The notes under the pieces are model-generated. The model saw only the letters and a program-made list of their open reading frames with translations, ran no database searches and had not been told where the DNA came from. A stretch of DNA of 64,000 bases. Origin: a virus (taxonomy: Duplodnaviria > Caudoviricetes). The translations under genes were made by a program, and so were the position numbers. Location: the IMG/VR virus record IMGVR_UViG_3300025601_000007; one strand, 5' to 3'. Positions 12,252-51,515 of this stretch are shown in pieces. The stretch's first letter is position 1, and each line of letters begins with the position of its first letter.

Positions 12252-14069
12252 ATGAGCGGACTTATTTCCGATTACCAAGATAAATATATCATTTCCGAGT
12301 ACTATACATTTAATGCTCCAACCCGTGAAATGATTATAGAGGCTGAAAAAAAATATCAGCCTATCGTGATGTCTGGAATTCTTCAGATAGCAGATACGTT
12401 AAATAAAAACGGTCGAATTTACCCATACGAAATTTTAAAGCGCGAGGCTGATAAGTACATGGAGCTCGTAAAGGAAAACGTGGCTGGTGGTGAACTTGAC
12501 CATCCTGATTGCAACTCATTAGACACTAGCATTTTAACCATTAACGGCTGGAAGAAGCTAATAGATATTGCAGAAGATGAGTTTATATATACTTTAAATC
12601 AGGAAACTAATAAAATTGAGGCTCATAAGATTGATAAAAAAATCTTAGAACCCTATAGTGGTAAGATGTATCACTTTAAGGGTAAAGGAATTGATTTGAT
12701 GGTTACTCCAAATCATAGATTTATACTTGAGACATCTGATGGGGTATCTTTTGAGAAGACAGCATCTGAGCTGTCTGAGTATAGAAGCGGAAAGTGGAGA
12801 ATTCCTAAAAAAGGAAATTGGGATGGAATTAATTACGATTCCTATATAATCCCTGGAATCGAAGAGTTTAAACCACACATAAGCAATGAGCTTAAGGATA
12901 AATATTCTCAAAACCTTGTTGTTAATGCAAAAGCGTGGTTTGCTTTTTTAGGTTTGTATCTAGCTGATGGAACTTCTGCTGGAGTGTGTGGGAGCAAAGC
13001 AAAACACAACCTCGTTAAAATTACACAGAAGAAGTCTGAGAATTTTGAGGCAATTAGAAAAATATTTGATGATTTAGGGATAGAGTATAACGAACGTGTT
13101 TATAGAGATGGGAAAATAGATTTTCAAATTTACGATGCACGACTTAAGCAATATCTATTTCCTTTAGGGAATAGTTCTGAAAAATACATTCCAGAAGATA
13201 TAAAAGCAGCTAATTCAGAATTGCTGACTATTCTTTTTGAAAATTTTCACATGGGAGATGGAACATCTAAAACATCTTATCATAAAGACAAAGGATATGT
13301 GTGTAAAAAGATTTTTTCTACTTCAGAAAAGATGATTAAAGACTTTAGTGAGGTGCTGTTAAAAATAGGGCTCCACGGAAATATAACTCAAGAACAACCT
13401 GTAGATAGATATATAAATGATGTAGTCGTTCTTGAAAAAGAAGTGGTGATGTCAGATGGGGCTGTAGAGATGGTTAAAGAAGAAATTTTAAAACCAAGAT
13501 TGATTGAGGCTAAAAATAGTAAAACTAAATTCATCCTTAATGTTAGCACTACAGATTTTATTTACATGGATGAGAGATTTTTAAAAATCTCTCAAATCCA
13601 AAACCCGTTTGATAAAGTAGCTTGTGTCAGAGTTAAAAACGGAAATTTCTTTGTAATGCGTAATGGTAAATCCCATTGGACTGGAAACTCCGCAGTTGTA
13701 TCTCTCGCTAATGTTTCACACCGTGTTGTTGAGATGTGGTGGGAAGGAAAAGAATTATGGGGCCGAGTGCAAATTGCTGAAACAGATGCAGGCAACACGT
13801 TGAAGGGTCTTCTAAAAACTGGATTCAAATTAGGAATTTCTTCTCGTGGAGTAGGAAGTGTTAAGTCTCAGGGTGGACAAGACATTGTGCAAGATGATTT
13901 TGAACTAATCGCTTTTGATTATGTATCAAACCCATCAACCCCAGGGGCTTACCTTTTTAAAGAAGGTTATATGAGACCACTTAAAGGGGTTAAAGAAAAA
14001 GCTAAATCAATAGGAGAGCTTAACCGTTTACAACTTATTTCTCAGAAATCTTTCTGGCAATCAGCGTAA
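12252..14069 (+). CDS. prohead protease (T4 gp21-like) with intein
   Basis: NKNGRIYP, GELDHPD|intein|SAVVSLANVSH, LGISSRGVGS, FELIAFDYVSNPSTPGA. Lies upstream of the scaffold and capsid genes. Confidence 0.92.
   Translation: MSGLISDYQDKYIISEYYTFNAPTREMIIEAEKKYQPIVMSGILQIADTLNKNGRIYPYEILKREADKYMELVKENVAGGELDHPDCNSLDTSILTINGWKKLIDIAEDEFIYTLNQETNKIEAHKIDKKILEPYSGKMYHFKGKGIDLMVTPNHRFILETSDGVSFEKTASELSEYRSGKWRIPKKGNWDGINYDSYIIPGIEEFKPHISNELKDKYSQNLVVNAKAWFAFLGLYLADGTSAGVCGSKAKHNLVKITQKKSENFEAIRKIFDDLGIEYNERVYRDGKIDFQIYDARLKQYLFPLGNSSEKYIPEDIKAANSELLTILFENFHMGDGTSKTSYHKDKGYVCKKIFSTSEKMIKDFSEVLLKIGLHGNITQEQPVDRYINDVVVLEKEVVMSDGAVEMVKEEILKPRLIEAKNSKTKFILNVSTTDFIYMDERFLKISQIQNPFDKVACVRVKNGNFFVMRNGKSHWTGNSAVVSLANVSHRVVEMWWEGKELWGRVQIAETDAGNTLKGLLKTGFKLGISSRGVGSVKSQGGQDIVQDDFELIAFDYVSNPSTPGAYLFKEGYMRPLKGVKEKAKSIGELNRLQLISQKSFWQSA
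12510..13688 (+). mobile_element. intein with LAGLIDADG endonuclease in prohead protease
   Basis: HPD|CNSLDTSILT...HWTGN|S, 393 aa. Motifs FLGLYLADG and FHMGDG; penultimate Gly instead of His. Confidence 0.88.
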
Positions 14070-39282: not shown

Positions 39283-42200
39283 ATGGCACAAGAAAGCAAT
39301 AATAGTATATTTCAAAGAGTCTATGACGCTGTTAACAATAACAAGCGACGCACTCCTCCTATGGACGCACAAGGGCAACCGCCTGGAATATCCACTCCCT
39401 CGCAAGGTCTTTTTGGTTCATTAGAGGATTTTCAACAGCAGTACCTTGATTGGCAAGTAAATAAAATCAGTCATGACCTATACACCAGAACTATTTATTA
39501 TGACACAGACCGTGTCAATTCTTATCATGATTATCGTGCAATGGACCAGTCTCCAGAGGTGTCTGCCGCATTAGATATAATTCGAGACGAATGTCTCACA
39601 AGAAACGAGCGTGGAAACATTTTAGAGGTTTATAGCTCCAATGATAGAATCAAATCTAAGTTAGATGATTTATTCCATAACAGAATGAATATCGATTACA
39701 ATTTGAGTTTATGGATTAGAGACCTTATTAAGTATGGAGATTATTTCGTTCACTTACATGTCCATAAAGACGAAGGTATTTATGACTTCATGACTCTTCC
39801 TCAAGAAGAAATTCACCGTGAAGAAGGATTCGATGGAACAGCAAGTTCTGTACGTTTCCGCTGGGAAACAACGCAAGATTACTTTGAATCGTGGCAGGTT
39901 GCCCATTTCAGGCTTATTGAGGATACTAGAAAACTTCCTTACGGACGGTGCTTGAAGCACGACACTTATATAGAGACAAGTACAGGGTATAAGTTTATAA
40001 AAGATATAGAGAAAGGAGATTTAGTTTTTTCATTTAACTCTGACACACAAAAAAAAGAAGTCACAAAAGTCTTAGATACAATTTGTTCTGGTGAAAAAGA
40101 AATTATAAAGATTAGAACAAAGAATAATGAAATAGAAACCTCTGAGGAGCACAGTTTTATGGTGTACGAGGATGGTGGGTTCGTATACAAACAAGTTGAC
40201 GATTTAAGATTAGGAAATCTGCTTGTTATAGATTCTGGAGAAAACCCTTCAGGGGTAGATATTTTTTTAAATAAAGAACTAAAAGAAGAGAGAAACTTCA
40301 ACGGATATAAAAACAACATTGATTTAATCCCTGATGTTGTTGATGTTGATTTTGCAAGGCTATGGGGTTTTTTACTAGGAGATGGATGGGTTTTTAACGA
40401 TTCTGTTTTTTTTGCACGAGGTATTGACGAATCTTTAAATAAAAAATACGCTTCACTTTTGAAGAAGTTTTCAGGAAAAGACACTATAAACCTTAAAAAC
40501 GCAAATTTAGAGGGTAGTTTAGAATTTTCTCAAACAGTATGTAACTCAAAGTTGCTTTCTTATATTCTCGAAAATAACGGGTTTAAAGGAAATGTTTATA
40601 TTAAAAGATTGCCTAGTTGGATTTTTGAGGCGTCATTAGAAATAAGAGAAGCTTTAATAGAAGGCATTATAGACGCTGATGGTTCTGTAAATATTGACGA
40701 GTGGAACTGTAAAAGATACACAATAGAATTAGCAAATGAAATTTTAGTAAAAGACTTAAAAACGCTATTACAATCAATAGGTAGAAAGACTGGCAAAATC
40801 TGTTCAAGAGATAGAAGTTCTGTTGTTTTTTGGGGAAAAGAATACAAAAGAAAGAAAAGTTTCTACTTCTACTTTTATGACTCTAAAATTAAACAAGCAG
40901 CAAAACATGAGTTATCAAATAGGATTAATAGTGGTTTCATCTTATCTCCAATCATCTCTATTGAGAACTCTGAAAAAGCAGAGCAGGTTTATGATATCCA
41001 CGTAGAGCATGAACACCATAATTTCTATGCGAATGGGATAGTCGTTCACAACTCTATCTTAGACCCTGCTAGAAAACTTTGGAAGCAACTACAGCTCGCT
41101 GAGGACTCAATGTTGGTCTATAGAATCACAAGAGCTCCAGAGCGTAGAATATTCTACATTGAGGTAGGCAACTTGGAGGATGCTGATGTTAAGCAATACA
41201 TGCAGCGTATCCAAAAGCAAGTTAAAAAACAGCCTATTGTGAATCAGAACGACGGCAATATGAGTTATCGTTATGACCCAATGAATATCTCGGAAGATTA
41301 TTTTATTCCAGTTCGTGGTGACAAGAGCACAAAAATTGACACACTTCCTGGAGCTTGTTTGGCTCTAGATACTAAAATCAACCTTCTTGATGGTCGAAGC
41401 CTTGAGCTTCAGGAAATCATTAAAGAGCGTGATGAAGGAAAACAGCTTTGGACTTACAGTATAAATCCAGAAACTGGAGTAATAGTTCCAGGAAAAATTA
41501 CATGGGCTGGAGTTACTCGTAAAGACGCTAAAGTAATGAAATTGACTTTTGACAACGGAGAGTCTGTTATTGTTACACCTGACCACAAGTTCCCTACTCG
41601 TTTTAAAGGTATACAAGAAGCACAAAATCTTGAAGAAGGAGATTCTATGTGGAGTTTTGAGAAGAGGTTTCAGAAGATTTTCAAAAACAAACCTAAAGCT
41701 AAAACATATGAACAAGTGTGGGACCACCAAAGCAAATCCTGGGAGTATACACATCGTATGGTTCATAATTACATGTATGAGCGCAATTTGCACAAGGAAC
41801 ATGTTTATCAAAAAAATGTGGAAAACAAAAACGTGATTCATCATTATGATTTTGACCGATACAATAATTCTCCAGAGAATTTAAAATTAATGAATTTCCA
41901 TGACCATGTTATGCTTCATCAATCTATGTATGCTTCTTATAAAAAAGAGCGTAAAGAAGGTAGAAATAAGTATTGGGATAATATCTCTGAGAAAGAATTA
42001 GAATCTAAAAGAGTAGTAGCACGAATCAACTTAGAAAAAGCAACAGAACGAATTCAAGAGCTACTGCAAGATGAAGATTTTAAAGCTGATTTTGAAAAGA
42101 AACGAATAGCTGGATATCGTAAAGCAAGAAAAACATCTTCTTCTCGTCTAAAATCATCTATTGCCGCTTCTAAACAATGGGCCGATGGTTCTCTGCGTGA

Positions 42201-43746
42201 AGCCATTCAAGAAAAACAAGAAATAAATTACAACGATGTAATGTTGGAGTTTGTGGTCTCTCGTTTTCAAGACGGCATGAGTGCCACCAACATTCTACGA
42301 GACATTAATGTCTCTAATTCTGGGTTTATGTCTGAATTTAACAACATAAACAAAGGGAACAAGCAATTGAAGAAAATGTCATCTTTCACCCACAATAACT
42401 TAGTGAAGATGATGAAGTCATTTGGGTATTCTAACTGGAGAGATTTCACGAAAAAAGCCGAATTATTTAATCATAAAGTGGCATCGATTGAGTGGCTAGA
42501 AACACCTCAAGACACAGGCACAATAACTGTAGATGGAAATCATGAACTACATGACCACCATAATTTTGCACTTTCTGTCGGAGTTTTTACACAAAATAGC
42601 AATCTAGGTGACATTCAAGATATTGAATATTTAGAAAATAAACTATTCGCGGCGTTAAAGGTTCCAAAAACTTATTTGAATTATGCTGAGAATTTACCTG
42701 GGGGGCCAACACTGTCTCAAGCAGATTTAAGATTTGCTAGGACCATTAATAGAATCCAGGAGCAAGTTCTAATGGAACTTCGTCGAATTGGTAAAATTCA
42801 CTTAGCGTTTCTTGGGCATGAAGACGAGATTAATGATTTTGATTTAAAACTCACAAACCCTTCTACTCAACAAGAGCTGTTGAAGCTAGAGACGATGAAA
42901 TCTCGACTTGAAGTATTTACATTGTTTGTGTCACAAGATATCTACTCACCTGCTTCTTACACTTGGGGTATGAAATACATTCTTGGATTTTCTGAAAAGG
43001 ATATCAAGAAAATGCTTCGTCAGAAAAAAGTTGAAAGGAAACTGTTTACGGAGATTGAATTTGCTCCGCAGACATACAAAAAGATTGGATTGTTCAAAGA
43101 TTTGGATGATAAATTTGAAATCCCAGGAGCAGCAGAAGCACTCCAAAACGCTGAGAACGAAGATTTAATGGGAGATGACGGCGGCGGCGGCGGCGGAGGC
43201 TTTGGCGGAGGAGGAGACTCGCTGGCTGGAGACCCATCTGGAGACCTTGATATGGGAGGTGGAGATGAAGTTGGAGGCGATGCAGGAGGAGCGCCTCCAG
43301 TAAGTGATAGCGAGCCTATATCAGAAACTAAAAGAGAACGCATTTGGGAAGGTCACAACAAGCGTGTTGATAGTGCAATTGATGACTTGCTTAAAGAGCT
43401 TGAGGAAACCGATGAAGAAGTATTTACGGAAGAAAGCGAGGAAGAAAAGAAAGACAGAGAAAAAAACGTTTTGTTTAAATCAAACGAAGAATTTATCAGT
43501 CAGACTGATAAAATGATTAGTGAGATAAAGGGAAATTTAAAAGAATCTGAGAAAAATATTGAAAATTACATTATACCAAAAGGAGTAATAAAAGAAAGAG
43601 TTCAAGGAAACCCTCTTGTCTCTACCAGTAATGATTTAGCAAGAAAAGCTAGAGATATAATGGATGAGATTGACCAAATAATATCTGAAACTGGGCAAAA
43701 TTCTGATATGGAAATAATTGAAGAAGACTATGACGAGGAAGAGTAA
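39283..43746 (+). CDS. portal protein (gp20-like) with two inteins
   Basis: EVSAALDIIRDE, PYGR|intein|SILDPARK.WKQLQLAEDSMLVYRITRAPERRIFYI, EDYFIP, IDTLPGA|intein|SNLGDIQDIEYL..KLFAALKVP. Confidence 0.95.
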   Translation: MAQESNNSIFQRVYDAVNNNKRRTPPMDAQGQPPGISTPSQGLFGSLEDFQQQYLDWQVNKISHDLYTRTIYYDTDRVNSYHDYRAMDQSPEVSAALDIIRDECLTRNERGNILEVYSSNDRIKSKLDDLFHNRMNIDYNLSLWIRDLIKYGDYFVHLHVHKDEGIYDFMTLPQEEIHREEGFDGTASSVRFRWETTQDYFESWQVAHFRLIEDTRKLPYGRCLKHDTYIETSTGYKFIKDIEKGDLVFSFNSDTQKKEVTKVLDTICSGEKEIIKIRTKNNEIETSEEHSFMVYEDGGFVYKQVDDLRLGNLLVIDSGENPSGVDIFLNKELKEERNFNGYKNNIDLIPDVVDVDFARLWGFLLGDGWVFNDSVFFARGIDESLNKKYASLLKKFSGKDTINLKNANLEGSLEFSQTVCNSKLLSYILENNGFKGNVYIKRLPSWIFEASLEIREALIEGIIDADGSVNIDEWNCKRYTIELANEILVKDLKTLLQSIGRKTGKICSRDRSSVVFWGKEYKRKKSFYFYFYDSKIKQAAKHELSNRINSGFILSPIISIENSEKAEQVYDIHVEHEHHNFYANGIVVHNSILDPARKLWKQLQLAEDSMLVYRITRAPERRIFYIEVGNLEDADVKQYMQRIQKQVKKQPIVNQNDGNMSYRYDPMNISEDYFIPVRGDKSTKIDTLPGACLALDTKINLLDGRSLELQEIIKERDEGKQLWTYSINPETGVIVPGKITWAGVTRKDAKVMKLTFDNGESVIVTPDHKFPTRFKGIQEAQNLEEGDSMWSFEKRFQKIFKNKPKAKTYEQVWDHQSKSWEYTHRMVHNYMYERNLHKEHVYQKNVENKNVIHHYDFDRYNNSPENLKLMNFHDHVMLHQSMYASYKKERKEGRNKYWDNISEKELESKRVVARINLEKATERIQELLQDEDFKADFEKKRIAGYRKARKTSSSRLKSSIAASKQWADGSLREAIQEKQEINYNDVMLEFVVSRFQDGMSATNILRDINVSNSGFMSEFNNINKGNKQLKKMSSFTHNNLVKMMKSFGYSNWRDFTKKAELFNHKVASIEWLETPQDTGTITVDGNHELHDHHNFALSVGVFTQNSNLGDIQDIEYLENKLFAALKVPKTYLNYAENLPGGPTLSQADLRFARTINRIQEQVLMELRRIGKIHLAFLGHEDEINDFDLKLTNPSTQQELLKLETMKSRLEVFTLFVSQDIYSPASYTWGMKYILGFSEKDIKKMLRQKKVERKLFTEIEFAPQTYKKIGLFKDLDDKFEIPGAAEALQNAENEDLMGDDGGGGGGGFGGGGDSLAGDPSGDLDMGGGDEVGGDAGGAPPVSDSEPISETKRERIWEGHNKRVDSAIDDLLKELEETDEEVFTEESEEEKKDREKNVLFKSNEEFISQTDKMISEIKGNLKESEKNIENYIIPKGVIKERVQGNPLVSTSNDLARKARDIMDEIDQIISETGQNSDMEIIEEDYDEEE
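39949..41052 (+). mobile_element. portal intein 1 with LAGLIDADG endonuclease
   Basis: CLKHDT...IVVHN|S, 368 aa. Motifs LWGFLLGDG and LIEGIIDADG. Confidence 0.9.
41356..42597 (+). mobile_element. portal intein 2 with HNH-type endonuclease
   Basis: CLALDT...TPDHKF...VFTQN|S, 414 aa. YTHRMV...VIHHYDFDRYNNSPENL...DHVMLH; penultimate Gln. Confidence 0.88.
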
Positions 43747-44220: not shown

Positions 44221-46410
44221 ATGTATATAGTCTTCGATACAGAGACTACTGGCAGGCCAAAACGGTTTAACGCACCTTGGACAGATGCAGATAACTGGCC
44301 TCGACTAGTACAGTTAGCCTGGGTTGAATATGCACAAGACGGCAGCGAAATATCCAGGCACGACCTTATAATTAAACCTGAAGGATACAACATTCCTCAC
44401 GAAGTCGTTCAAATACACGGCATATCAAACGAAAAGGCGCACGCAGAAGGAATTTCTATGCTTGATGCCTTAAATCAGTTTAAAATTGCTCTAGAGCGTA
44501 ACTATTACCTCATAGCACATAATATCAATTTTGACCTTGGAATTATGGGGTGTGAATTTCATCGAGCATCGATGAGTCACAATCTAGCTTCAATATTTCC
44601 CGTTGACACGATGAAGCTTACAATTGACTTTTGTAAATTAAGGGGTCGTCGGGGTTATAAATTTCCAAAACTTATTGAGCTCCATAATAAGCTTTTTGGG
44701 AAAGACTTTTTAGGTGCTCACAACGCATTTTTCGATGTGCAAGCAACCGCTAAATGTTTTTTTGAACTTCAACGGCTTGGCATTTTCGGATTTAAAGAAC
44801 TTCCTTCCGATTCCTCTAATGGGTTTTCTTCTGAGAGTGTTGCCCACGTATCGGTATCCCCAGAAGAGGAAGCTAAGCCGTTAGTTCATTTCTCTTGTCA
44901 CACTCACTATAGCTTGCTTCGTGGCTCAGGTAGTATTGATAATTATCTTAAGCGTGCTAAAGAACTAGGGCACACATCTCTCGCTGTTATTGATGTCGAA
45001 ACCATGTCAGGCAGTCTAGAGTTGTCACAGAAAGCTGAAAAATACGGAATCAAGCCAATATTTGGAATTGAAATCTATCTCAACGATACTGTTGGCTCCG
45101 AAGAGTCAGAAAAAGGTGGATACCCAATAAAAATCATTGTTAAAAACCAAGTGGGTTTTGTAAACCTTAATAAGCTGATATTTAAATCTCATTCAGAAGG
45201 TTTTGATGGGATGTATTCTCGTATTCACACTGATTGGTTAATTGAGAACAAAGAAGGTTTGATTGTTACCACTGGAAACTACCAAGGATATCTCGCAAGT
45301 TTGTTTTTTAAAGGACAAAAGACGGCAGCTTCTAAATATTGGGAACGATTACAAAAAGCATTTGGCCCAGATTATATCGCAGAAATTAAGTTTTCAGAGA
45401 TTGGTGAGCAAAAGCGATTTAACAACTTTGTTTTAAAAATGGCATCCGCCACGAAGGCAATGGTGATTTTAGATAATGATGTTCATTATGTTAAGCAAAA
45501 AGAAGCGTCTTTGCAAGACACTGTTTCCGCTATAAAACAACAAATAGGGATGGATAAGTGTCGTTTAGAGGAACGAAGAAATCTGTATTATTTGTCGAGA
45601 AAAGACTACTATGTTCTGAATTCAAAATTTGGATACAATTACCCGCACAACATTCTACAGATATTCATGGATAACACTTTGAAGCTGGCTGAGCGTTGCA
45701 ATTTTGAATTTGAAGTAGGGGTTGAAAAATACCCTCGTTACGAACCAACGAAAGACATTATAGATTGGGCAGGAGCAGAGGACACGGAAACCATTATCAC
45801 AAAGATGGCTTTTGCGAAACTCAAGCAAAAGCTCGGACGTAAGTTTACCAAAGGAAAATTACAACAAACACAAGAGGTTGTAGATGAGTACACAAATAGA
45901 CTCCATTACGAGTTAAAAGTAATTAAGGACAAGAAGATGCTTGACTACTTCCTTGTAAACTGGGAAATTATTCGAGATTATAAGAAAAGAGGTTTTGAAA
46001 TTGGAAGTGGAAGAGGCTCTGCAGCTGGTTCTTTATTAGCATGGTGTCTTGACATCACTAAGATTGACCCTATTCAATTCGGGCTGTATTTTGAGCGTTT
46101 TTTGAATCCAGCACGTAATTGCGTTACTGAAGATGGGCTGGTGTTGATGAAAGATGGCTCACTGAAACCTATCGGAGATATTGTTCCTGGGGACCCAGTT
46201 GAAACAGAATCAGGCAACGGCGTTTTGGTTCAAGTGCATAAGCGAGATATCACACCAGCTGATGAGGTGTTTGAGATTGAAACTGAAGATTCCATCATTG
46301 TAAAATTGACGGGGAATCACATTGTACCTGTGATGCGCAAAGGAGAGCGTGTTGATATTCGCGTGGATGAGTTATTAGAGACAGATAAAATGTTAATACG
46401 AAAATTATGA
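44221..46410 (+). CDS. dnaE: DNA polymerase III alpha part 1 (DEDDh exonuclease + PHP + start of catalytic domain) ending in split intein N-half 1
   Basis: VFDTETTG...AHNINFD...AHNAFFD; HFSCHTHYSLL; GSGRGSAAGSL; LYFERFLNPARN|CVTEDG...stop. Confidence 0.95.
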   Translation: MYIVFDTETTGRPKRFNAPWTDADNWPRLVQLAWVEYAQDGSEISRHDLIIKPEGYNIPHEVVQIHGISNEKAHAEGISMLDALNQFKIALERNYYLIAHNINFDLGIMGCEFHRASMSHNLASIFPVDTMKLTIDFCKLRGRRGYKFPKLIELHNKLFGKDFLGAHNAFFDVQATAKCFFELQRLGIFGFKELPSDSSNGFSSESVAHVSVSPEEEAKPLVHFSCHTHYSLLRGSGSIDNYLKRAKELGHTSLAVIDVETMSGSLELSQKAEKYGIKPIFGIEIYLNDTVGSEESEKGGYPIKIIVKNQVGFVNLNKLIFKSHSEGFDGMYSRIHTDWLIENKEGLIVTTGNYQGYLASLFFKGQKTAASKYWERLQKAFGPDYIAEIKFSEIGEQKRFNNFVLKMASATKAMVILDNDVHYVKQKEASLQDTVSAIKQQIGMDKCRLEERRNLYYLSRKDYYVLNSKFGYNYPHNILQIFMDNTLKLAERCNFEFEVGVEKYPRYEPTKDIIDWAGAEDTETIITKMAFAKLKQKLGRKFTKGKLQQTQEVVDEYTNRLHYELKVIKDKKMLDYFLVNWEIIRDYKKRGFEIGSGRGSAAGSLLAWCLDITKIDPIQFGLYFERFLNPARNCVTEDGLVLMKDGSLKPIGDIVPGDPVETESGNGVLVQVHKRDITPADEVFEIETEDSIIVKLTGNHIVPVMRKGERVDIRVDELLETDKMLIRKL
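46120..46407 (+). mobile_element. split intein 1, N-fragment (96 aa)
   Basis: Cys1, GD.V, LTGNH block B, then a stop codon. Confidence 0.9.
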
Positions 46411-46739
46411 TAGTACAAGGAAGTAGAGATATTAATTTTAAAGGTATGTGTCAAGAAGGTTCTAAACTTATAATTCCAGCTTGGCAAAAACCAACAGAAT
46501 GGGATAAGCAGGTGAGAATATTCTTAGACCACATTATAATGTCAATGTCTTCCAATAAAGGCTCTCATGATATTGGAAGAATTAACGCGAGAGATACCCA
46601 CAAAATACCCTCTAATGAGAAGGGGTGGTTTGACAATATTGATGAAAGAGGAAATGAGATTGCAGAAGCGCTTTGGGGGCTGTATGAACTGGAGTTTAAA
46701 AATCCGAGCCTATCTATAGATAAAGACTTTCTAAAATGA
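46407..46739 (+). CDS. hypothetical protein inside the first dnaE split, 110 aa
   Basis: ATGA-coupled on both sides; no motif recognised. Confidence 0.7.
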   Translation: MIVQGSRDINFKGMCQEGSKLIIPAWQKPTEWDKQVRIFLDHIIMSMSSNKGSHDIGRINARDTHKIPSNEKGWFDNIDERGNEIAEALWGLYELEFKNPSLSIDKDFLK

Positions 46740-47800
46740 TAGATTTATTATTAAGCATAGAAGATATTACAAAAGCGGAACTCGACCAAAGACTTCGTGA
46801 GACTTCTCTTATTCATGCTGTTCCAACAAAAAAAGAAATCAAAGAGTGGCCATATAAGTGTGGTTTAGCTGTTTCTCCTTCTTGCATTATTGGAGCTATG
46901 TTAATTAGAGATAATAAAAAAACTGGTGTCATCACTGGTTTTCATTACATCATTGACCGTGGTAAGACGCAGATGAGATTGGAGGTGGATACTAAAAACT
47001 ACCCTTTAACTGGGAGTCAAGTTGAATATTTTACAAAAATTTATAACAAAAAAATACGTCACAAACTCCATCCTTCTAGAGGGGGAAAGTTTTTTTGGGA
47101 GCATGGGTTTTATATGAAGCACGGTGATTACAAAAAAATATACTATCGAACAAAAGGTTATAGAGAAAAATATCAAAAAGGATTAAATGAAACTTATGGA
47201 ACAACAGGGTTAACTTCTCCAGTACAAATACAAGAAGTTAGAGATAAGATATCTAAATCCATTCAAGACAAATACGGGGTGCCTTGGTTTTTAAACAGAG
47301 GAAGTCATTATAGTGCTGTGACTGAAACAATGATGGAAAAATATGGAGTTGAGAATATATTCCACAGTGATAATGTGCAACATGAAATCCAAGTCAACTT
47401 TGGAAGTGGGAGTTCTAAAAAAGAGCAAAAACTCGTTGAATACCTTGTTTCTGATTTAAAGCTTATTGATTCGAGTTTTTATGATGAAAGTGAAAATCAA
47501 CAAATTATAGTTGCTGATGTTGAAAACAAAAAAGCATATCATGTAGATTTTTATAATCCTAAAAACCGTATTATAGTAGAATTTTATGGAGACTATTGGC
47601 ACTGTAATCCATTAAAGTTTAAAGCAGATTACTTTCATCCTCATAAAAAGAAAACAGCAGGACAACTTTGGGAGATTGACGAACAGAGAATTAAGCAAAT
47701 TAAAAAGATAACAGGATATCGTGTTTTTATCATATGGGAACATGATTGGGACAAAAACAGAGAAGAAGTAAAAGCTACCTTAAAAAAAGCAATTCAATGA
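46736..47800 (+). CDS. free-standing DUF559/Vsr-like homing endonuclease
   Basis: KYGV repeats, then SKKEQKL...HVDFY...IVEFYGDYWHCNP...FIIWEHDW. Confidence 0.8.
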   Translation: MIDLLLSIEDITKAELDQRLRETSLIHAVPTKKEIKEWPYKCGLAVSPSCIIGAMLIRDNKKTGVITGFHYIIDRGKTQMRLEVDTKNYPLTGSQVEYFTKIYNKKIRHKLHPSRGGKFFWEHGFYMKHGDYKKIYYRTKGYREKYQKGLNETYGTTGLTSPVQIQEVRDKISKSIQDKYGVPWFLNRGSHYSAVTETMMEKYGVENIFHSDNVQHEIQVNFGSGSSKKEQKLVEYLVSDLKLIDSSFYDESENQQIIVADVENKKAYHVDFYNPKNRIIVEFYGDYWHCNPLKFKADYFHPHKKKTAGQLWEIDEQRIKQIKKITGYRVFIIWEHDWDKNREEVKATLKKAIQ

Positions 47801-47949
47801 AGACAGTCAGCATAAAGTCAATACGCAAGATACAGTACGACGGGCCAGTTTATGACTTATCTTTTGAAGGGGACCCATATTTTATGGTCAAATCTACTTC
47901 TAGTAAAGCTTTAAATAAAGAGTGTAACTCACTGATAATCATACACAAT
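47797..47949 (+). mobile_element. split intein 1, C-fragment (51 aa)
   Basis: VYDL block F and IIHN|S block G. Confidence 0.9.
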
Positions 47950-49419
47950 AGCCCTCCCGATTTAGATATTGATTTTCAAACAGGAACAGACCATGAAACT
48001 GATGACTTCCTTTACAAAAAATATGGTAGAGAACGAGTAATGAGTGTTGGTACTTTTTCTAAATGGAATGAAAGAGGATGTTTGAAGGACGTTGTTCGTG
48101 CACACCGTGGGCCAGAAGCAACAGGAACTGAATCGGATGTAGCTCAAATCACTAAAGAGATGCCGAAGTTCGACAAAGTCGAATACAACTTGGCTTGGTG
48201 GTTAGAAAACCATGCTCAGTCAGATGATTGCAGTCCACTCGTACAAAGATGGCTTACTGATTCATCCAACAAAGTAATTATAGAACAAACACTGGCTCTT
48301 CAGGGTCAAGTGAGAGGTTTTGGTAAACACGCCGCTGGAGTTGTTATTACTCCTGGGCCTTCTTGGGACTACCTCCCAACAAATATGATTGTCTCTAATA
48401 AATCAATTGTATCAGCATATCAAGAGGGGGACCGCTCTGGAAAAGACTTGAGTTATCTTGGGATATTGAAGCTTGACCGTTTGAAAGTGTCAACAATTAA
48501 TATCATCATGGATTGTATCAAGATGGTTAAGGATGGTGAAAAGATTGATTTGTTCGATACAATAATGAATATTGATGAGCAGTTTGATGACCAAAACCTT
48601 TACAAGGAGTTAATGCTTGGTCAGAACCACGGTATATTCCAATTTGAATCGCCAGGCATGAACGCTTTGATTCGAGGACTCAACGTTGAGAACTTTGAAG
48701 AAATGGCTGCTTGTAATGCTCTTTATCGACCAGGCCCAATGGGAATTGGAGCCCACCGTCAATACGTTGATAACAAGAGGTTCCCAGGACAGATTGAATT
48801 TCCATCTGATTTGATAAAGCCAATATTAGAAAAAACTAACGGTGTACTGGTGTTTCAGGAGCAAATTCAATTTATCGCAAAAGAGATAGCGGGAATGGAT
48901 TTAGGAGAGGGTGATAACTTGCGTCGTGCACTTGATAAAGCTGCGAAGCTTATAAAAAAAACAAACCAAGGAGAAGAACTCACTCAGGACGAAAAGGAAA
49001 GTAAGAACTATAAAGCTTACGAAGAGTATTGGAGTAAGTTTGTATCTGGAGCAGAGGAAAATGGTGTTCCGAAAGAAGAGGTTGATAAAATCCTTTTATA
49101 CCTTTCTGATTATCTAGGGTATTCGTTTAACAAATGTTTATCTGAAAACTGTGAAGTCACAGAAAAGGAAAAGGGAAAAATATCTCTTTTAAAAACTAGG
49201 CCAGGAGATATGATTTTAGGTTATAATCCAGACACGAAAAAAAATGAATGGGTTCCAGTGAAAGCTCGTCATAACAACGGTAAAAAGAAAGTTTATCGAA
49301 TTAAGACAAGTAGTGGGAAAATTTTAGAATGCACTTTGGACCATAAAATAATGACTGAACAAGGTATGTTACCTCTGAAAGATATTATTGAACAAAAGCT
49401 TTCTGTAAAAATAAACTAG
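47797..49419 (+). CDS. dnaE: DNA polymerase III alpha part 2, flanked by split intein C-half 1 and N-half 2 (start ATG 47797)
   Basis: MKTVSIKSIRK..VYDL..IIHN|SPPDLDIDF, GKHAAGVV, LKLDRL, GIFQFES, NALYRPGP, GVLVFQEQ, GYSFNK|CLSEN...stop. Confidence 0.95.
   Translation: MKTVSIKSIRKIQYDGPVYDLSFEGDPYFMVKSTSSKALNKECNSLIIIHNSPPDLDIDFQTGTDHETDDFLYKKYGRERVMSVGTFSKWNERGCLKDVVRAHRGPEATGTESDVAQITKEMPKFDKVEYNLAWWLENHAQSDDCSPLVQRWLTDSSNKVIIEQTLALQGQVRGFGKHAAGVVITPGPSWDYLPTNMIVSNKSIVSAYQEGDRSGKDLSYLGILKLDRLKVSTINIIMDCIKMVKDGEKIDLFDTIMNIDEQFDDQNLYKELMLGQNHGIFQFESPGMNALIRGLNVENFEEMAACNALYRPGPMGIGAHRQYVDNKRFPGQIEFPSDLIKPILEKTNGVLVFQEQIQFIAKEIAGMDLGEGDNLRRALDKAAKLIKKTNQGEELTQDEKESKNYKAYEEYWSKFVSGAEENGVPKEEVDKILLYLSDYLGYSFNKCLSENCEVTEKEKGKISLLKTRPGDMILGYNPDTKKNEWVPVKARHNNGKKKVYRIKTSSGKILECTLDHKIMTEQGMLPLKDIIEQKLSVKIN
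49135..49416 (+). mobile_element. split intein 2, N-fragment (94 aa)
   Basis: Cys1 CLSEN, GDMILG, CTLDHKI block B, then a stop codon. Confidence 0.9.
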
Positions 49420-49452
49420 TTTTAACAAATCTCAGTCTATATACTATATATT

Positions 49453-50442
49453 ATGAAAGTAAAAATCGATTTCAAAAAGGATATAGTGAATGGCGAAGAT
49501 ATTGATATGAAAAAATGGAGGGCAAAGTTGTCATTAGTTTTAATTAGACAAAACAACAACTACTACAATTCTGAGATATCAAATTATTATCACAAAAGTG
49601 TTTATGGGAAGAGTTTGGTAGATTTGCTTCCAGAATCCATTACAACTCCTTTGTGTCCGATTACAGGAGATAAGCCTAGTTACAAACTTCAAGGCTCTAT
49701 TGTTTTCGGTAAATTTTCGAATAATTGTACTACAACAGAAACTGCTAAGTACGTGGCGGAAAATAATAAAGAATATAAACTTCACGTCGAAAGAATGAAG
49801 GAAGAACGCAAAGGAAAAGGAAACCCTATGTACGGTATAAAAGCTTGGAACAAAGGAAAAACTAAAGATAATAATGAAGTCATGAAAAAGCTTTCTGAGC
49901 GCAGAAAAGGCGTTGAATTCAGCAATGAAACACTTGAGCGCATGTCAGAGAGTGCTAAAAAAAGAGAAATACATGGTCATACTGGATTTAAACATTCAGA
50001 AGAAACTAAACAGCGCCTTAGAGATATAACGATAGCTAGATACAAAAGTGGTGTCTATTCTCATGGTCAATCAAAACCTCATCTTGAGGTAAAGAGAATG
50101 CTAAGTGAACGATTTGGAAAAGATACTTATTCTGAATCAAATCACGCTAAAGAATTCAAAGGTACATGGGAAGAAGAGTTTTCTTGTTATGGTTATTCTT
50201 TTGACTTTAGAATAGGAAGCATTTTAATAGAAGTACAGGGAGATTTTTTTCATAGTAATCAAAATACAAGACATAGCGGGTGTACTCATGATGTTCAAAT
50301 AAAGAACAAGAAAAGAGATATAAAAAAAAGGCATGCAGTTGAAAGTGACGGGAGTTTTCAGCTTATAGAATTGTGGGAGAATGATATAATTAATAACGAG
50401 TCAATTATAAAAAACAAAATAAAATGTTTGAATCTATTATAG
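49453..50442 (+). CDS. free-standing endonuclease (NUMOD3-like repeats + DUF559/Vsr-like domain)
   Basis: GNPMYG.KAWNKG, GFKHSEETKQRL, FDF.IGSILIEVQGDFFH, IELWEND. Confidence 0.8.
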   Translation: MKVKIDFKKDIVNGEDIDMKKWRAKLSLVLIRQNNNYYNSEISNYYHKSVYGKSLVDLLPESITTPLCPITGDKPSYKLQGSIVFGKFSNNCTTTETAKYVAENNKEYKLHVERMKEERKGKGNPMYGIKAWNKGKTKDNNEVMKKLSERRKGVEFSNETLERMSESAKKREIHGHTGFKHSEETKQRLRDITIARYKSGVYSHGQSKPHLEVKRMLSERFGKDTYSESNHAKEFKGTWEEEFSCYGYSFDFRIGSILIEVQGDFFHSNQNTRHSGCTHDVQIKNKKRDIKKRHAVESDGSFQLIELWENDIINNESIIKNKIKCLNLL

Positions 50443-50534
50443 AAGTTGAAGAAATAGGAGTGGTAGATACTTACGATTTAGAAATCGATAATGAACATCA
50501 CAACTTCTATGCAAATGATATCTGTGTTTCAAAT
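50424..50534 (+). mobile_element. split intein 2, C-fragment (37 aa)
   Basis: TYDLEI, HNFYAN and VSN|S (penultimate Ser). Confidence 0.9.
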
Positions 50535-51515
50535 AGTCACTCGGTTTCATACGCATACATCGCTATGCAAACTTTATACTTAAAGCATTACTACCCAGTA
50601 TACTTTTATACAGCGCTATTGAACGAGCAAAAGTCTTCAAACGCTGGAAAGGAGAAAGAAAAACAATGGCTGACTCAGACAATCACCGCTGCAATATCTA
50701 GAGGAATCACTATAAAACCTCCGACTAGATTCTCAATATGGAGATGGTCGATGACTGGCCCCAACGAAATCACAATGGGTTTCTCTAGCATGACTGGGAT
50801 GGGAGATATTGCTTATAAAGAGTTGAAAGATAATTTAGCAATAAAAGGGAAGAAATTTAGCGAAATATCTATGGCTGCTTTTTTTGATATACCCTTCACT
50901 AAATTCAACAAGACTTCTTTTCGTTCTTGTTTACAAGCGGGAATGTTTGATGACTGGAGCACTTCTAGAGAATATTTAATGTTTCTAAGAGATAAAAACA
51001 GGAAGAAAAAACCTAAAGACGCTTCGCAGTTTGCAATGTTCGACATGGATGATATCGAGTACACTCATAGAATAGACCATTTAAAATACGCAGCAACTTC
51101 CGATATTGAAAAGCAAGATGAATTTATGGGAGTATGTGGTTTTGATATGGAAGAAATTAATCGAGTTTCAATTATTCACACCCGAATGGGGGAAATGAGT
51201 GACAAGTCGAAAGAAGCTATTCTTCCACTACCACATTATGCTGAAGAAGGTTTTTACTGGTTTATTATCAATGATATCTTATTTAAGAAAACTAAAAAAG
51301 GAAAAGACTTTATCTCTATACATGGAAGCGATGGTATTGACACTGTAAAGTTCAATATATTTTCTCCAATTAGTGAAAAACTTCTTCCTCAGCTACAGAA
51401 ACAAGCTGTATACGTAGGCAAATTCAAACGAAACGAAAAAGGATTTTTAAACTTTAACGGAAGAGTTAAATTAACAACAGTAATGCATGCATATGAAGAA
51501 ACATTATTGGTTTGA
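50424..51515 (+). CDS. dnaE: DNA polymerase III alpha part 3, starting with split intein C-half 2
   Basis: MFESIIEVEEIGVVDTYDLEI..HNFYAN..VSN|SHSVSYAYIAMQT.YLK.YYP..FY.ALL; C-terminal OB-fold-like region. Confidence 0.93.
   Translation: MFESIIEVEEIGVVDTYDLEIDNEHHNFYANDICVSNSHSVSYAYIAMQTLYLKHYYPVYFYTALLNEQKSSNAGKEKEKQWLTQTITAAISRGITIKPPTRFSIWRWSMTGPNEITMGFSSMTGMGDIAYKELKDNLAIKGKKFSEISMAAFFDIPFTKFNKTSFRSCLQAGMFDDWSTSREYLMFLRDKNRKKKPKDASQFAMFDMDDIEYTHRIDHLKYAATSDIEKQDEFMGVCGFDMEEINRVSIIHTRMGEMSDKSKEAILPLPHYAEEGFYWFIINDILFKKTKKGKDFISIHGSDGIDTVKFNIFSPISEKLLPQLQKQAVYVGKFKRNEKGFLNFNGRVKLTTVMHAYEETLLV

What the first reader, a model, noticed from the sequence alone, without database searches (positions are those of the whole stretch)
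46120..50534. The two split inteins have opposite charge polarity, a possible orthogonality code
Counted by hand (D+E vs K+R): IntN1 20 vs 12 (net -8), IntC1 5 vs 7 (+2), IntN2 12 vs 19 (+7), IntC2 10 vs 0 (-10). Established: split intein halves associate electrostatically, usually acidic IntN with basic IntC (Npu DnaE). Pair 2 is reversed. Inference: this disfavours IntN1+IntC2 (skipping the middle) and IntN2+IntC1 (circularising the middle fragment). It would make a natural orthogonal pair for three-piece protein ligation.
Basis: partly seen in the sequence, partly recalled or inferred. Interest (0 to 1): 0.72.

Follow-up and report, generated by a model that had tools for sequence, protein, structure and literature searches.

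The report
Opposite-charge split inteins in phage dnaE
A large T4-like phage encodes its DNA polymerase in three pieces joined by two split inteins whose halves do carry opposite charge patterns, but each pattern is an inherited trait of a known intein type, and related phages combine same-charge split inteins in one gene, so it is not a special orthogonality code.

Summary
The four intein halves lie exactly where stated and the hand counts are exact: IntN1 -8, IntC1 +2, IntN2 +7, IntC2 -10. The contrast also holds on the two strands that pair.

1. Both polarities have been described since 2009. The reversed gp41-1 pattern and charge engineering for orthogonality are published. Opposite-polarity pairs such as gp41-1 with NrdJ-1 are already used for multi-piece ligation.
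2. Across about 120 relatives of the middle piece, each intein family keeps its polarity whether or not the other intein is present. The site-2 intein also keeps it when contiguous.
3. Related phages carry two same-polarity split inteins in one dnaE (11 clusters of 163-166 aa mini-pieces). One locus has a four-piece gene with three split inteins, and one has a charge-neutralised site-2 intein.
4. The two inteins here are only 25% identical, a divergence at which tested inteins are nearly always orthogonal.

Charge most likely drives capture of the cognate half. N- and C-strand charges covary (rho -0.60), and split forms are more charged than contiguous ones. The opposite polarity is then a by-product that may help but is not required.

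This scan had already noted the mini middle piece on other DNA.

The parts
44221..46119 (+). dnaE N-extein: DnaQ-like exonuclease, PHP domain and the start of the Pol III alpha catalytic domain. It ends ...FERFLNPARN.
   Evidence: Pfam RNase_T, PHP and DNA_pol3_alpha. It aligns to the intein-less relative L003 up to the junction.
46120..46407 (+). IntN1, 96 aa. It has Cys1 and a TGNH block B. Net charge is -8, with an acidic strand (DEVFEIETED).
   Evidence: weak Pfam Hint hit; homologous IntN1 in L011 and L013-L016.
46407..46739 (+). 110-aa ORF of unknown function. It is coupled by ATGA overlaps to both neighbours.
   Evidence: no Pfam or PHROG hit.
46736..47800 (+). Free-standing homing-endonuclease-like gene 1, 354 aa. 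It has a DUF7487 region and a C-terminal GDYWHCNP motif like the Vsr-like family.
   Evidence: Pfam DUF7487; PHROG homing endonuclease families; syntenic gene in L011-L016.
47797..47949 (+). IntC1, 51 aa. It has a basic N-terminal strand, ends ...IIIHN, and is followed by Ser+1.
   Evidence: the ATG overlaps the stop of gene 1.
47950..49134 (+). dnaE middle extein, 395 aa: the rest of the catalytic domain plus the fingers. It starts SPPDLDIDF and ends ...GYSFNK.
   Evidence: Pfam DNA_pol3_alpha and DNA_pol3_finger; 59% identity to the intein-less L003 and L004.
49135..49416 (+). IntN2, 94 aa. It has Cys1 and a TLDH block B. Net charge is +7, with a basic strand (GKKKVYRIKTSSGK).
   Evidence: Pfam Intein_splicing; best solved relatives are Npu DnaE inteins, E = 1.4e-7.
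49453..50442 (+). Free-standing homing-endonuclease-like gene 2, 329 aa. It has a weak NUMOD3 hit and a C-terminal GDFFHSN motif.
   Evidence: syntenic gene in L011-L015; its 3' end overlaps the IntC2 gene by 19 nt.
50424..50534 (+). IntC2, 37 aa. It has 10 acidic and no basic residues, ends ...ICVSN, and is followed by Ser+1.
   Evidence: 62-78% identical to IntC2 of the related loci.
50535..51515 (+). dnaE C-extein, 326 aa. It starts SHSVSYAYIAMQ.
   Evidence: It aligns to L003 from the FNK|SHS junction onward.

Best explanation
Two unrelated split-intein lineages invaded the dnaE gene of a T4-like phage independently. Each brought its own free-standing endonuclease gene.

The site-1 intein sits at RN|S, just before the PDxDxDF motif, and belongs to a family that is acidic on IntN and basic on IntC. 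The site-2 intein sits at FNK|S. It is a relative of the cyanobacterial DnaE split intein, but with the strand charges reversed as in gp41-1: basic IntN and acidic IntC.

Within each pair, the complementary charges on the long IntN strand and the N-terminal IntC strand drive rapid capture of the cognate half. This is the published capture-and-collapse model. Two trans-splicing reactions then rebuild an intact polymerase of about 1350 aa.

The opposite polarity of the two pairs is inherited from the two families. It was not tuned to their co-residence. It probably adds some repulsion against the two wrong pairings, but overall sequence and fold divergence (25% identity) already provides specificity.

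Shown here: the anatomy, the junctions, the charge pattern, its conservation, and its independence from context. Inferred: actual trans-splicing, actual orthogonality, and the size of the electrostatic contribution.
For: - Junctions: the intein-less relatives L003 and L004 read straight through both sites, with no residue missing.
- Catalytic motifs are intact: Cys1, TxxH, terminal Asn and Ser+1.
- The layout of N piece, endonuclease gene, middle piece, endonuclease gene and C piece recurs in L011, L013, L014 and L015.
- Polarity is a family trait. The mean IntN2 strand charge is +4.8 with a split site-1 intein, +4.1 with a split site-0 intein and +4.25 when it is the only split. Double against single split gives p = 0.27 (n = 30 and 4).
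- IntC1 and IntC0 charges do not differ with or without a split site-2 intein (p = 0.18 and 0.98).
- Contiguous site-2 mini-inteins in 14 clusters keep the same N+/C- pattern, only weaker. Split against contiguous gives p = 0.001.
- N-strand and C-strand charges covary across 20 site-2 inteins, Spearman rho -0.60, p = 0.005, not corrected for relatedness.
- A contiguous homologue folds as a HINT domain (pLDDT 85), with both charged segments in long strands. TM is 0.77-0.83 to gp41-1, Ssp DnaB and Npu DnaE inteins.
- The closest relative of the middle piece (P0002, 86% identical) has IntC1 but no site-2 intein at all.
- Same-polarity pairs exist. There are 11 clusters of 163-166 aa pieces made of a basic IntC0, 34 extein residues and an acidic IntN1. 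The loci L015 and L016 confirm them.
- The two inteins here are 25% identical.
Against: - No experiment shows splicing or orthogonality for these inteins.
- The two most common double-split combinations in my sample (site 1 with site 2, 22 clusters; site 0 with site 2, 8 clusters) are opposite-polarity pairs. A selective filter in favour of opposite polarity therefore cannot be excluded.
- The counts come from truncated hit lists (the best 120 of 2171) and from two searches of different reach. They cannot give real frequencies.
- The statistical tests are not corrected for relatedness.
Confidence: 0.75

Rival explanations
1. Opposite charge polarity is a selected orthogonality code. It prevents skipping of the middle piece (IntN1 with IntC2) and circularisation of the middle piece (IntN2 with IntC1).
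For: - Both wrong pairings would be like-charged.
- Charge swapping over whole Npu DnaE fragments is reported to suppress cross-reactivity, as cited.
- Charge changes made NpuDnaB-derived split halves orthogonal.
- Opposite-polarity combinations account for 30 of the 41 doubly split middle-piece clusters I saw.
Against: - Polarity does not depend on co-residence.
- The 164-aa middle pieces carry a basic IntC0 and an acidic IntN1 on one short chain. That is the arrangement most prone to electrostatic mis-capture, yet it persists in 11 clusters and in the four-piece gene of L015.
- L012 pairs an N-/C+ site-0 intein with a neutralised site-2 intein.
- gp41-1 and gp41-8 are both N+/C-, NrdJ-1 and IMPDH-1 are both N-/C+, and all four are mutually orthogonal.
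- Charge-swapped Npu DnaE IntN still spliced with wild-type IntC.
- Three inteins in one gene cannot be told apart by a two-state code.
Confidence: 0.15
2. The charge clusters serve mainly to keep the separated fragments disordered and soluble before assembly. They contribute little to partner recognition of any kind.
For: - Beyer et al. suggest a role for the strand charges in solubility.
- Recent work stresses the aggregation propensity of IntN fragments.
- Split forms of the site-2 intein are more charged than contiguous forms.
Against: - The N-strand and C-strand charges covary with opposite sign, including a lineage where both are neutralised together. Pairing predicts this; solubility alone does not.
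- Solubility would not require the two halves to have opposite signs.
Confidence: 0.07
3. The pieces are decaying remnants. The phage relies on the host polymerase, no trans-splicing occurs, and the charges have no function.
For: None found beyond the lack of direct expression or splicing data.
Against: - All splicing motifs and polymerase domains are intact.
- The genes are translationally coupled.
- The layout and the catalytic residues are conserved at 47-59% identity across dozens of clusters.
Confidence: 0.03

Closest known systems
gp41-1 naturally split intein (Dassa 2009; structure 6QAZ, Beyer et al.)
   Same: IntN is basic and IntC acidic on the two pairing strands. The split is at the canonical endonuclease insertion point, the +1 residue is Ser, it comes from phage-like metagenomic DNA, and a free-standing endonuclease gene lies between the halves. 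A contiguous homologue of the site-2 intein superposes with TM 0.77-0.83 at 28% identity.
   Different: The host protein is DnaE, not the gp41 helicase. By sequence, IntN2 is nearer to Npu DnaE inteins (E = 1.4e-7) than to gp41-1 (E = 0.31). The site-2 intein ends in Ser-Asn rather than His-Asn.
Cyanobacterial Npu/Ssp DnaE split intein
   Same: The host enzyme and the region of it are the same. These inteins are the best sequence match to IntN2 among solved structures. The penultimate residue is Ser, giving a ...SN end, and the block F motif is DHNF-like. The halves are charge-complementary.
   Different: The polarity is opposite: Npu has an acidic IntN strand and a basic IntC. By my recollection of the native AEY|CFN junction, the insertion point here (FNK|S) lies four residues downstream, with Ser rather than Cys at +1. 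The halves here are adjacent with an endonuclease gene between them, not at separate loci.
NrdJ-1 and IMPDH-1 split inteins, used with gp41-1 as orthogonal sets
   Same: Their polarity is N-/C+, like the site-1 intein. Combined with gp41-1, they already give opposite-polarity orthogonal pairs for multi-piece ligation.
   Different: The host genes differ and there is no detectable close sequence relationship to the site-1 intein. Those sets were assembled by people, whereas here the pair occurs in one natural gene.
Fractured dnaE loci DnaE-1 to DnaE-3 of Dassa et al. 2009
   Same: They are phage-like dnaE genes with a split intein and a Vsr-like free-standing endonuclease gene, at three insertion points that differ from the cyanobacterial one. 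DnaE-1 also carried the C part of a second intein.
   Different: Those were short metagenomic reads showing one complete split each. I could not obtain their sequences to test whether their sites are the same. Here the complete three-piece gene is seen, and relatives show a four-piece gene.
Engineered charge-swapped Npu DnaE and charge-engineered NpuDnaB split inteins
   Same: They rest on the same idea, that reversing strand charges reduces cross-reaction.
   Different: The engineered pairs differ only in charged residues, whereas the two natural inteins here differ at 75% of positions. The strand-only swap did not make Npu DnaE orthogonal.

Membership tests
Naturally split intein (HINT splicing domain split at the endonuclease insertion point) | Nucleophile (Cys or Ser) at intein position 1 and a TxxH block B in the N half | tested here: met
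   IntN1 has Cys1 and TGNH. IntN2 has Cys1 and TLDH. C1, T67 and H70 are invariant in 14 site-2 homologues.
Naturally split intein (HINT splicing domain split at the endonuclease insertion point) | Terminal Asn of the C half followed by a Ser, Thr or Cys +1 nucleophile | tested here: met
   IntC1 ends HN followed by S. IntC2 ends SN followed by S. Both are conserved in homologues.
Naturally split intein (HINT splicing domain split at the endonuclease insertion point) | Removing the intein halves restores a contiguous, conserved host protein | tested here: met
   The intein-less 1169-aa DnaE of L003 and L004 reads FERFMNPTRK-SMPDIDVDF and GYSFNK-SHS across both sites.
Naturally split intein (HINT splicing domain split at the endonuclease insertion point) | HINT fold | tested here: inconclusive
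   Met for the site-2 family through a contiguous homologue: pLDDT 85 and TM about 0.8 to solved inteins. For site 1 there are only weak sequence hits: Pfam Hint at 21.6 bits, below its cut-off, and distant PDB hits. The window's own halves could not be folded as one chain.
Naturally split intein (HINT splicing domain split at the endonuclease insertion point) | Protein trans-splicing activity | not testable with these tools
   Requires expression of the three genes.
Fractured gene arrangement (Dassa et al. 2009) | The two intein-bearing gene halves are adjacent on one strand with a free-standing endonuclease gene between them | tested here: met
   The ORF map shows this twice in this gene. 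The same order is seen in L011-L016.
Fractured gene arrangement (Dassa et al. 2009) | The intervening gene is a GIY-YIG or Vsr-like homing endonuclease | tested here: inconclusive
   There are PHROG hits to homing endonuclease and HNH endonuclease families, plus DUF7487. A Vsr-like GDYWH/GDFFH motif is visible by eye in the translations. There is no solved-structure hit and no Pfam Vsr hit for these two genes.
Fractured gene arrangement (Dassa et al. 2009) | The 3' end of the endonuclease gene overlaps the start of the C-half gene | tested here: met
   There is an ATGA overlap at 47797-47800 and a 19-nt overlap at 50424-50442.
Charge-complementary (capture-and-collapse type) split intein | Opposite local net charge on the long IntN strand and the N-terminal IntC strand | tested here: met
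   Pair 1 is -5 and +2. Pair 2 is +5 and -6. The same signs occur in five further loci, except in the neutralised L012.
Charge-complementary (capture-and-collapse type) split intein | The two strands' charges co-vary across homologues | tested here: met
   Spearman rho is -0.60, p = 0.005, n = 20 site-2 inteins, not corrected for phylogeny.
   Site-0 and site-1 inteins are both N-/C+, and both are split in one dnaE in L015, L016 and 11 protein clusters. L012 has a neutral site-2 intein.
   There is no difference between contexts for IntN2, IntC1 or IntC0.

The most novel reading that the evidence does not exclude
Charge polarity may act as one layer of a natural compatibility filter. It would bias which split inteins can settle together in one essential gene.

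This phage dnaE clade then offers a ready-made natural set of three split inteins that must be mutually orthogonal. Two share a polarity and one is a charge-reversed relative of the Npu DnaE intein. Together they assemble one enzyme from up to four polypeptides.

That would be a natural system in which the relative weight of electrostatics and fold complementarity in intein specificity could be measured.
Probability: 0.15. Interest if true: 0.55.

Novelty: new member of a known kind. Interest (0 to 1): 0.3.

Why it matters
Orthogonal split inteins are working tools for assembling proteins from several pieces, so a natural pair that assembles an essential enzyme is a useful source of parts.

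The comparative result is the more useful message. Nature runs two or three split inteins in one gene, including pairs with the same charge polarity. Net charge alone is therefore a poor predictor of orthogonality and should not be used as a design rule on its own.

The family also gives a natural series of split, contiguous, charge-reversed and charge-neutralised forms for studying how much electrostatic capture contributes to speed and specificity.

Tried and rejected
- A megablast of the locus against deposited phage genomes found nothing.
- A scan of IMG/VR with the middle extein gave only two loci, both intein-less. They were useful as junction controls but not for charge statistics.
- No supplementary sequences of Dassa 2009 are held. 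I could not test whether their DnaE-1 to DnaE-3 sites equal sites 0 to 2 here.
- Literature searches for a described natural gene with two or more split inteins returned only the partial DnaE-1 remark. This is absence in the searchable library, not proof of absence.
- The second endonuclease-like protein has no sequence relative among solved structures.
- I did not run a complex prediction. The cognate pairs are textbook cases that would pass by likeness to solved inteins. A pass or a fail for non-cognate pairs would say nothing reliable about electrostatic discrimination.
- I did not try to estimate true co-occurrence frequencies of the three inteins. The hit lists are truncated and come from searches of different reach.
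- I considered that the +2 of IntC1 might be an artefact of start-codon choice. The upstream TTG would add six basic residues, but homologues support the ATG.
Full report
**What is there**

Window 44221-51515 (+) holds a phage dnaE gene in three reading frames. Endonuclease-like genes lie between them, and all are on one strand and tightly coupled.
- Piece 1 (44221-46410) carries a DnaQ-like exonuclease, a PHP domain and the start of the Pol III alpha catalytic domain. It ends in a 96-aa intein N half that starts with Cys at 46120.
- Piece 2 starts at ATG 47797 with a 51-aa intein C half ending ...HN, followed by Ser. It continues through the rest of the catalytic domain and the fingers, and ends in a 94-aa intein N half starting with Cys at 49135.
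- Piece 3 (50424-51515) starts with a 37-aa intein C half ending ...SN, followed by Ser.
- Between the pieces lie a 110-aa ORF of unknown function, a 354-aa endonuclease-like gene and a 329-aa endonuclease-like gene.
- Three junctions are ATGA overlaps, and the second endonuclease-like gene overlaps piece 3 by 19 nt.

**The junctions are real**

Two related viral contigs, L003 and L004, are 59% identical in the middle extein. Each encodes one uninterrupted 1169-aa DnaE that reads straight across both sites...FERFMNPTRK-SMPDIDVDF... and ...GYSFNK-SHS.... Removing the four intein halves from the window's pieces therefore restores a normal polymerase with no residue missing.

Site 1 lies just before the PDxDxDF motif. 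From general knowledge of Pol III alpha, that motif holds catalytic aspartates.

By my recollection of the native AEY|CFN junction, site 2 lies four residues downstream of the well-known cyanobacterial DnaE split-intein site.

**The observation**

In known split inteins, the segments that pair are the long strand before block B in IntN and the N-terminal strand of IntC. On those segments the local charges are -5 and +2 for pair 1, and +5 and -6 for pair 2.

Compared with sliding windows of this window's own ORF products, only IntC2 is a clear outlier, in the lowest 2%. IntC1 is unremarkable. What makes the pattern meaningful is its conservation in relatives, not the raw numbers.

**Relatives**

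A search with the middle piece returned 2171 hits, of which the best 120 were listed. Parsing them against the intein-less reference shows three intein insertion points in this dnaE clade:
- site 0, GRG|SAAG;
- site 1, RN|S;
- site 2, FNK|S.

All of the following combinations occur:
- site 1 split together with site 2 split, as in the window (22 clusters);
- site 0 split together with site 2 split (8 clusters);
- site 0 or site 1 split together with a contiguous site-2 mini-intein of 129-150 aa (14 clusters);
- site 0 or site 1 split alone;
- site 2 split alone.

The closest relative of the window's middle piece is P0002, at 86% identity. It has IntC1 but no site-2 intein at all, so that intein is gained or lost on a short time scale.

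Four fetched contigs show the same order of genes. L011, L013 and L014 are split at sites 1 and 2, and L012 at sites 0 and 2. Their neighbours include T4-like portal and baseplate genes.

**Polarity is a family trait**

- Every site-1 and site-0 IntC has a basic N-terminal strand, whether or not a site-2 intein is present (p = 0.18 and 0.98).
- The site-2 IntN strand is basic in all contexts. Its mean charge is +4.8 with a split site 1, +4.1 with a split site 0 and +4.25 as the only split. Double against single split gives p = 0.27, on 30 and 4 sequences.
- Contiguous site-2 mini-inteins have the same N+/C- pattern, only weaker (mean about +3; split against contiguous p = 0.001).
- Across 20 site-2 inteins, the N-strand and C-strand charges covary with opposite sign (rho -0.60, p = 0.005, not corrected for relatedness).

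These results fit the published view that charge complementarity serves capture of the cognate half and is stronger in split inteins than in cis-splicing ones. They give no sign that the charges respond to a second intein in the gene.

**Natural counter-examples**

A search with the last 130 residues of piece 1 found 11 clusters of 163-166 aa proteins. Each consists of a basic site-0 IntC, 34 extein residues and an acidic site-1 IntN.
- Locus L015 shows the whole gene in four pieces with three split inteins and three endonuclease-like genes. Net charges of the halves are -16 and +4 at site 0, -11 and +3 at site 1, and +3 and -11 at site 2.
- L016 has sites 0 and 1 split.

Two split inteins of the same polarity therefore work in one gene. 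In the mini-piece, an oppositely charged non-cognate IntC and IntN even sit on one short chain. If charge were the main discriminator, that is the arrangement most exposed to mis-capture.

In L012 the site-2 intein is neutralised (local -2 and +1) next to an N-/C+ site-0 intein.

A two-state code also cannot separate three inteins.

**What is already known**

- Dassa et al. 2009 described fractured genes, including three dnaE loci. One of those carried part of a second intein.
- Beyer et al. described the reversed charge of gp41-1 relative to Npu DnaE.
- They also showed that a strand charge swap of Npu DnaE IntN still splices with wild-type IntC.
- In the same work, charge changes in NpuDnaB-derived halves did give orthogonality.
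- Pinto et al. found 15 of 16 distinct inteins mutually orthogonal. [quoted passage not shown] Same-polarity natural inteins are therefore orthogonal, and opposite-polarity pairs are already in use.

The window's two inteins are 25% identical, which is as diverged as those.

**Placement of the two inteins**

IntN2 matches Npu DnaE inteins best among solved structures (E = 1.4e-7; gp41-1 has E = 0.31). The alignment puts its basic strand opposite the acidic strand of Npu.

A contiguous homologue was modelled from a 14-sequence alignment. It is a confident HINT domain (pLDDT 85) with both charged segments in long strands. It superposes on Ssp DnaB, gp41-1 and Npu DnaE inteins at TM about 0.8.

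The site-2 intein is thus a DnaE-intein relative with gp41-1-like charges. IntN1 has only distant hits.

**Verdict**

The mechanism most likely at work is ordinary charge-assisted capture within each cognate pair, with orthogonality coming mainly from divergence of the two families. The opposite polarity is a by-product that may help a little.

I rate it as a new member of a known kind, of modest interest.

The multi-piece polymerase genes of this phage clade, with up to four pieces, are the more striking feature. They are the subject of a separate finding on this stretch, and this scan had already noted the mini middle piece on other DNA.

Noticed in passing
L015:5809-14727: A related phage contig encodes dnaE in four pieces, with three split inteins (sites 0, 1 and 2) and three endonuclease-like genes between them. 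The second piece is only 164 aa: an IntC, 34 extein residues and an IntN.
   Followed up: partly
L011:3718-5862: The N piece of this relative contains a contiguous intein at site 0 (...HN|SAAG inside the ORF, with Pfam Hom_end_hint and Intein_splicing). This comes in addition to split inteins at sites 1 and 2, giving three inteins in one dnaE.
   Followed up: no
L012:7001-10672: The site-2 split intein of this relative has lost the family's charge pattern. Its IntN2 net charge is -8 and its IntC2 net charge is -1, and both strands are near neutral.
   Followed up: partly
P0002 (772 aa): The closest relative of the window's middle piece is 86% identical. It keeps IntC1 but has no intein at site 2, so the site-2 intein was recently gained here or lost there.
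   Followed up: no
window 46407-46739 (+): This 110-aa ORF has no family hit. It is wedged by ATGA overlaps between the IntN1 gene and endonuclease-like gene 1. Its IPAWQKPTEW segment resembles the start of L016:6119-6505, where the endonuclease gene is itself broken in two. It may be a detached or duplicated N-terminal piece of the endonuclease.
   Followed up: no
window 39283-43746 (+): The T4-like portal protein gene (1487 aa) carries two contiguous inteins, one with a LAGLIDADG domain. Together with the prohead protease intein near 12555-12779, this phage fragment holds at least five inteins.
   Followed up: partly
L003:4376-7885 and L004:103-3612: The intein-less relatives also lack the N-terminal DnaQ-like exonuclease domain that the window's piece 1, L013, L015 and L016 have. 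The exonuclease fusion therefore varies within the clade.
   Followed up: no
window 49135-49416 and 50424-50534: The site-2 intein ends in Ser-Asn rather than His-Asn, as cyanobacterial DnaE inteins do. By my recollection of the native AEY|CFN junction, it sits four residues from their insertion point. That suggests a shared origin, with a shift of site and a reversal of charge.
   Followed up: partly
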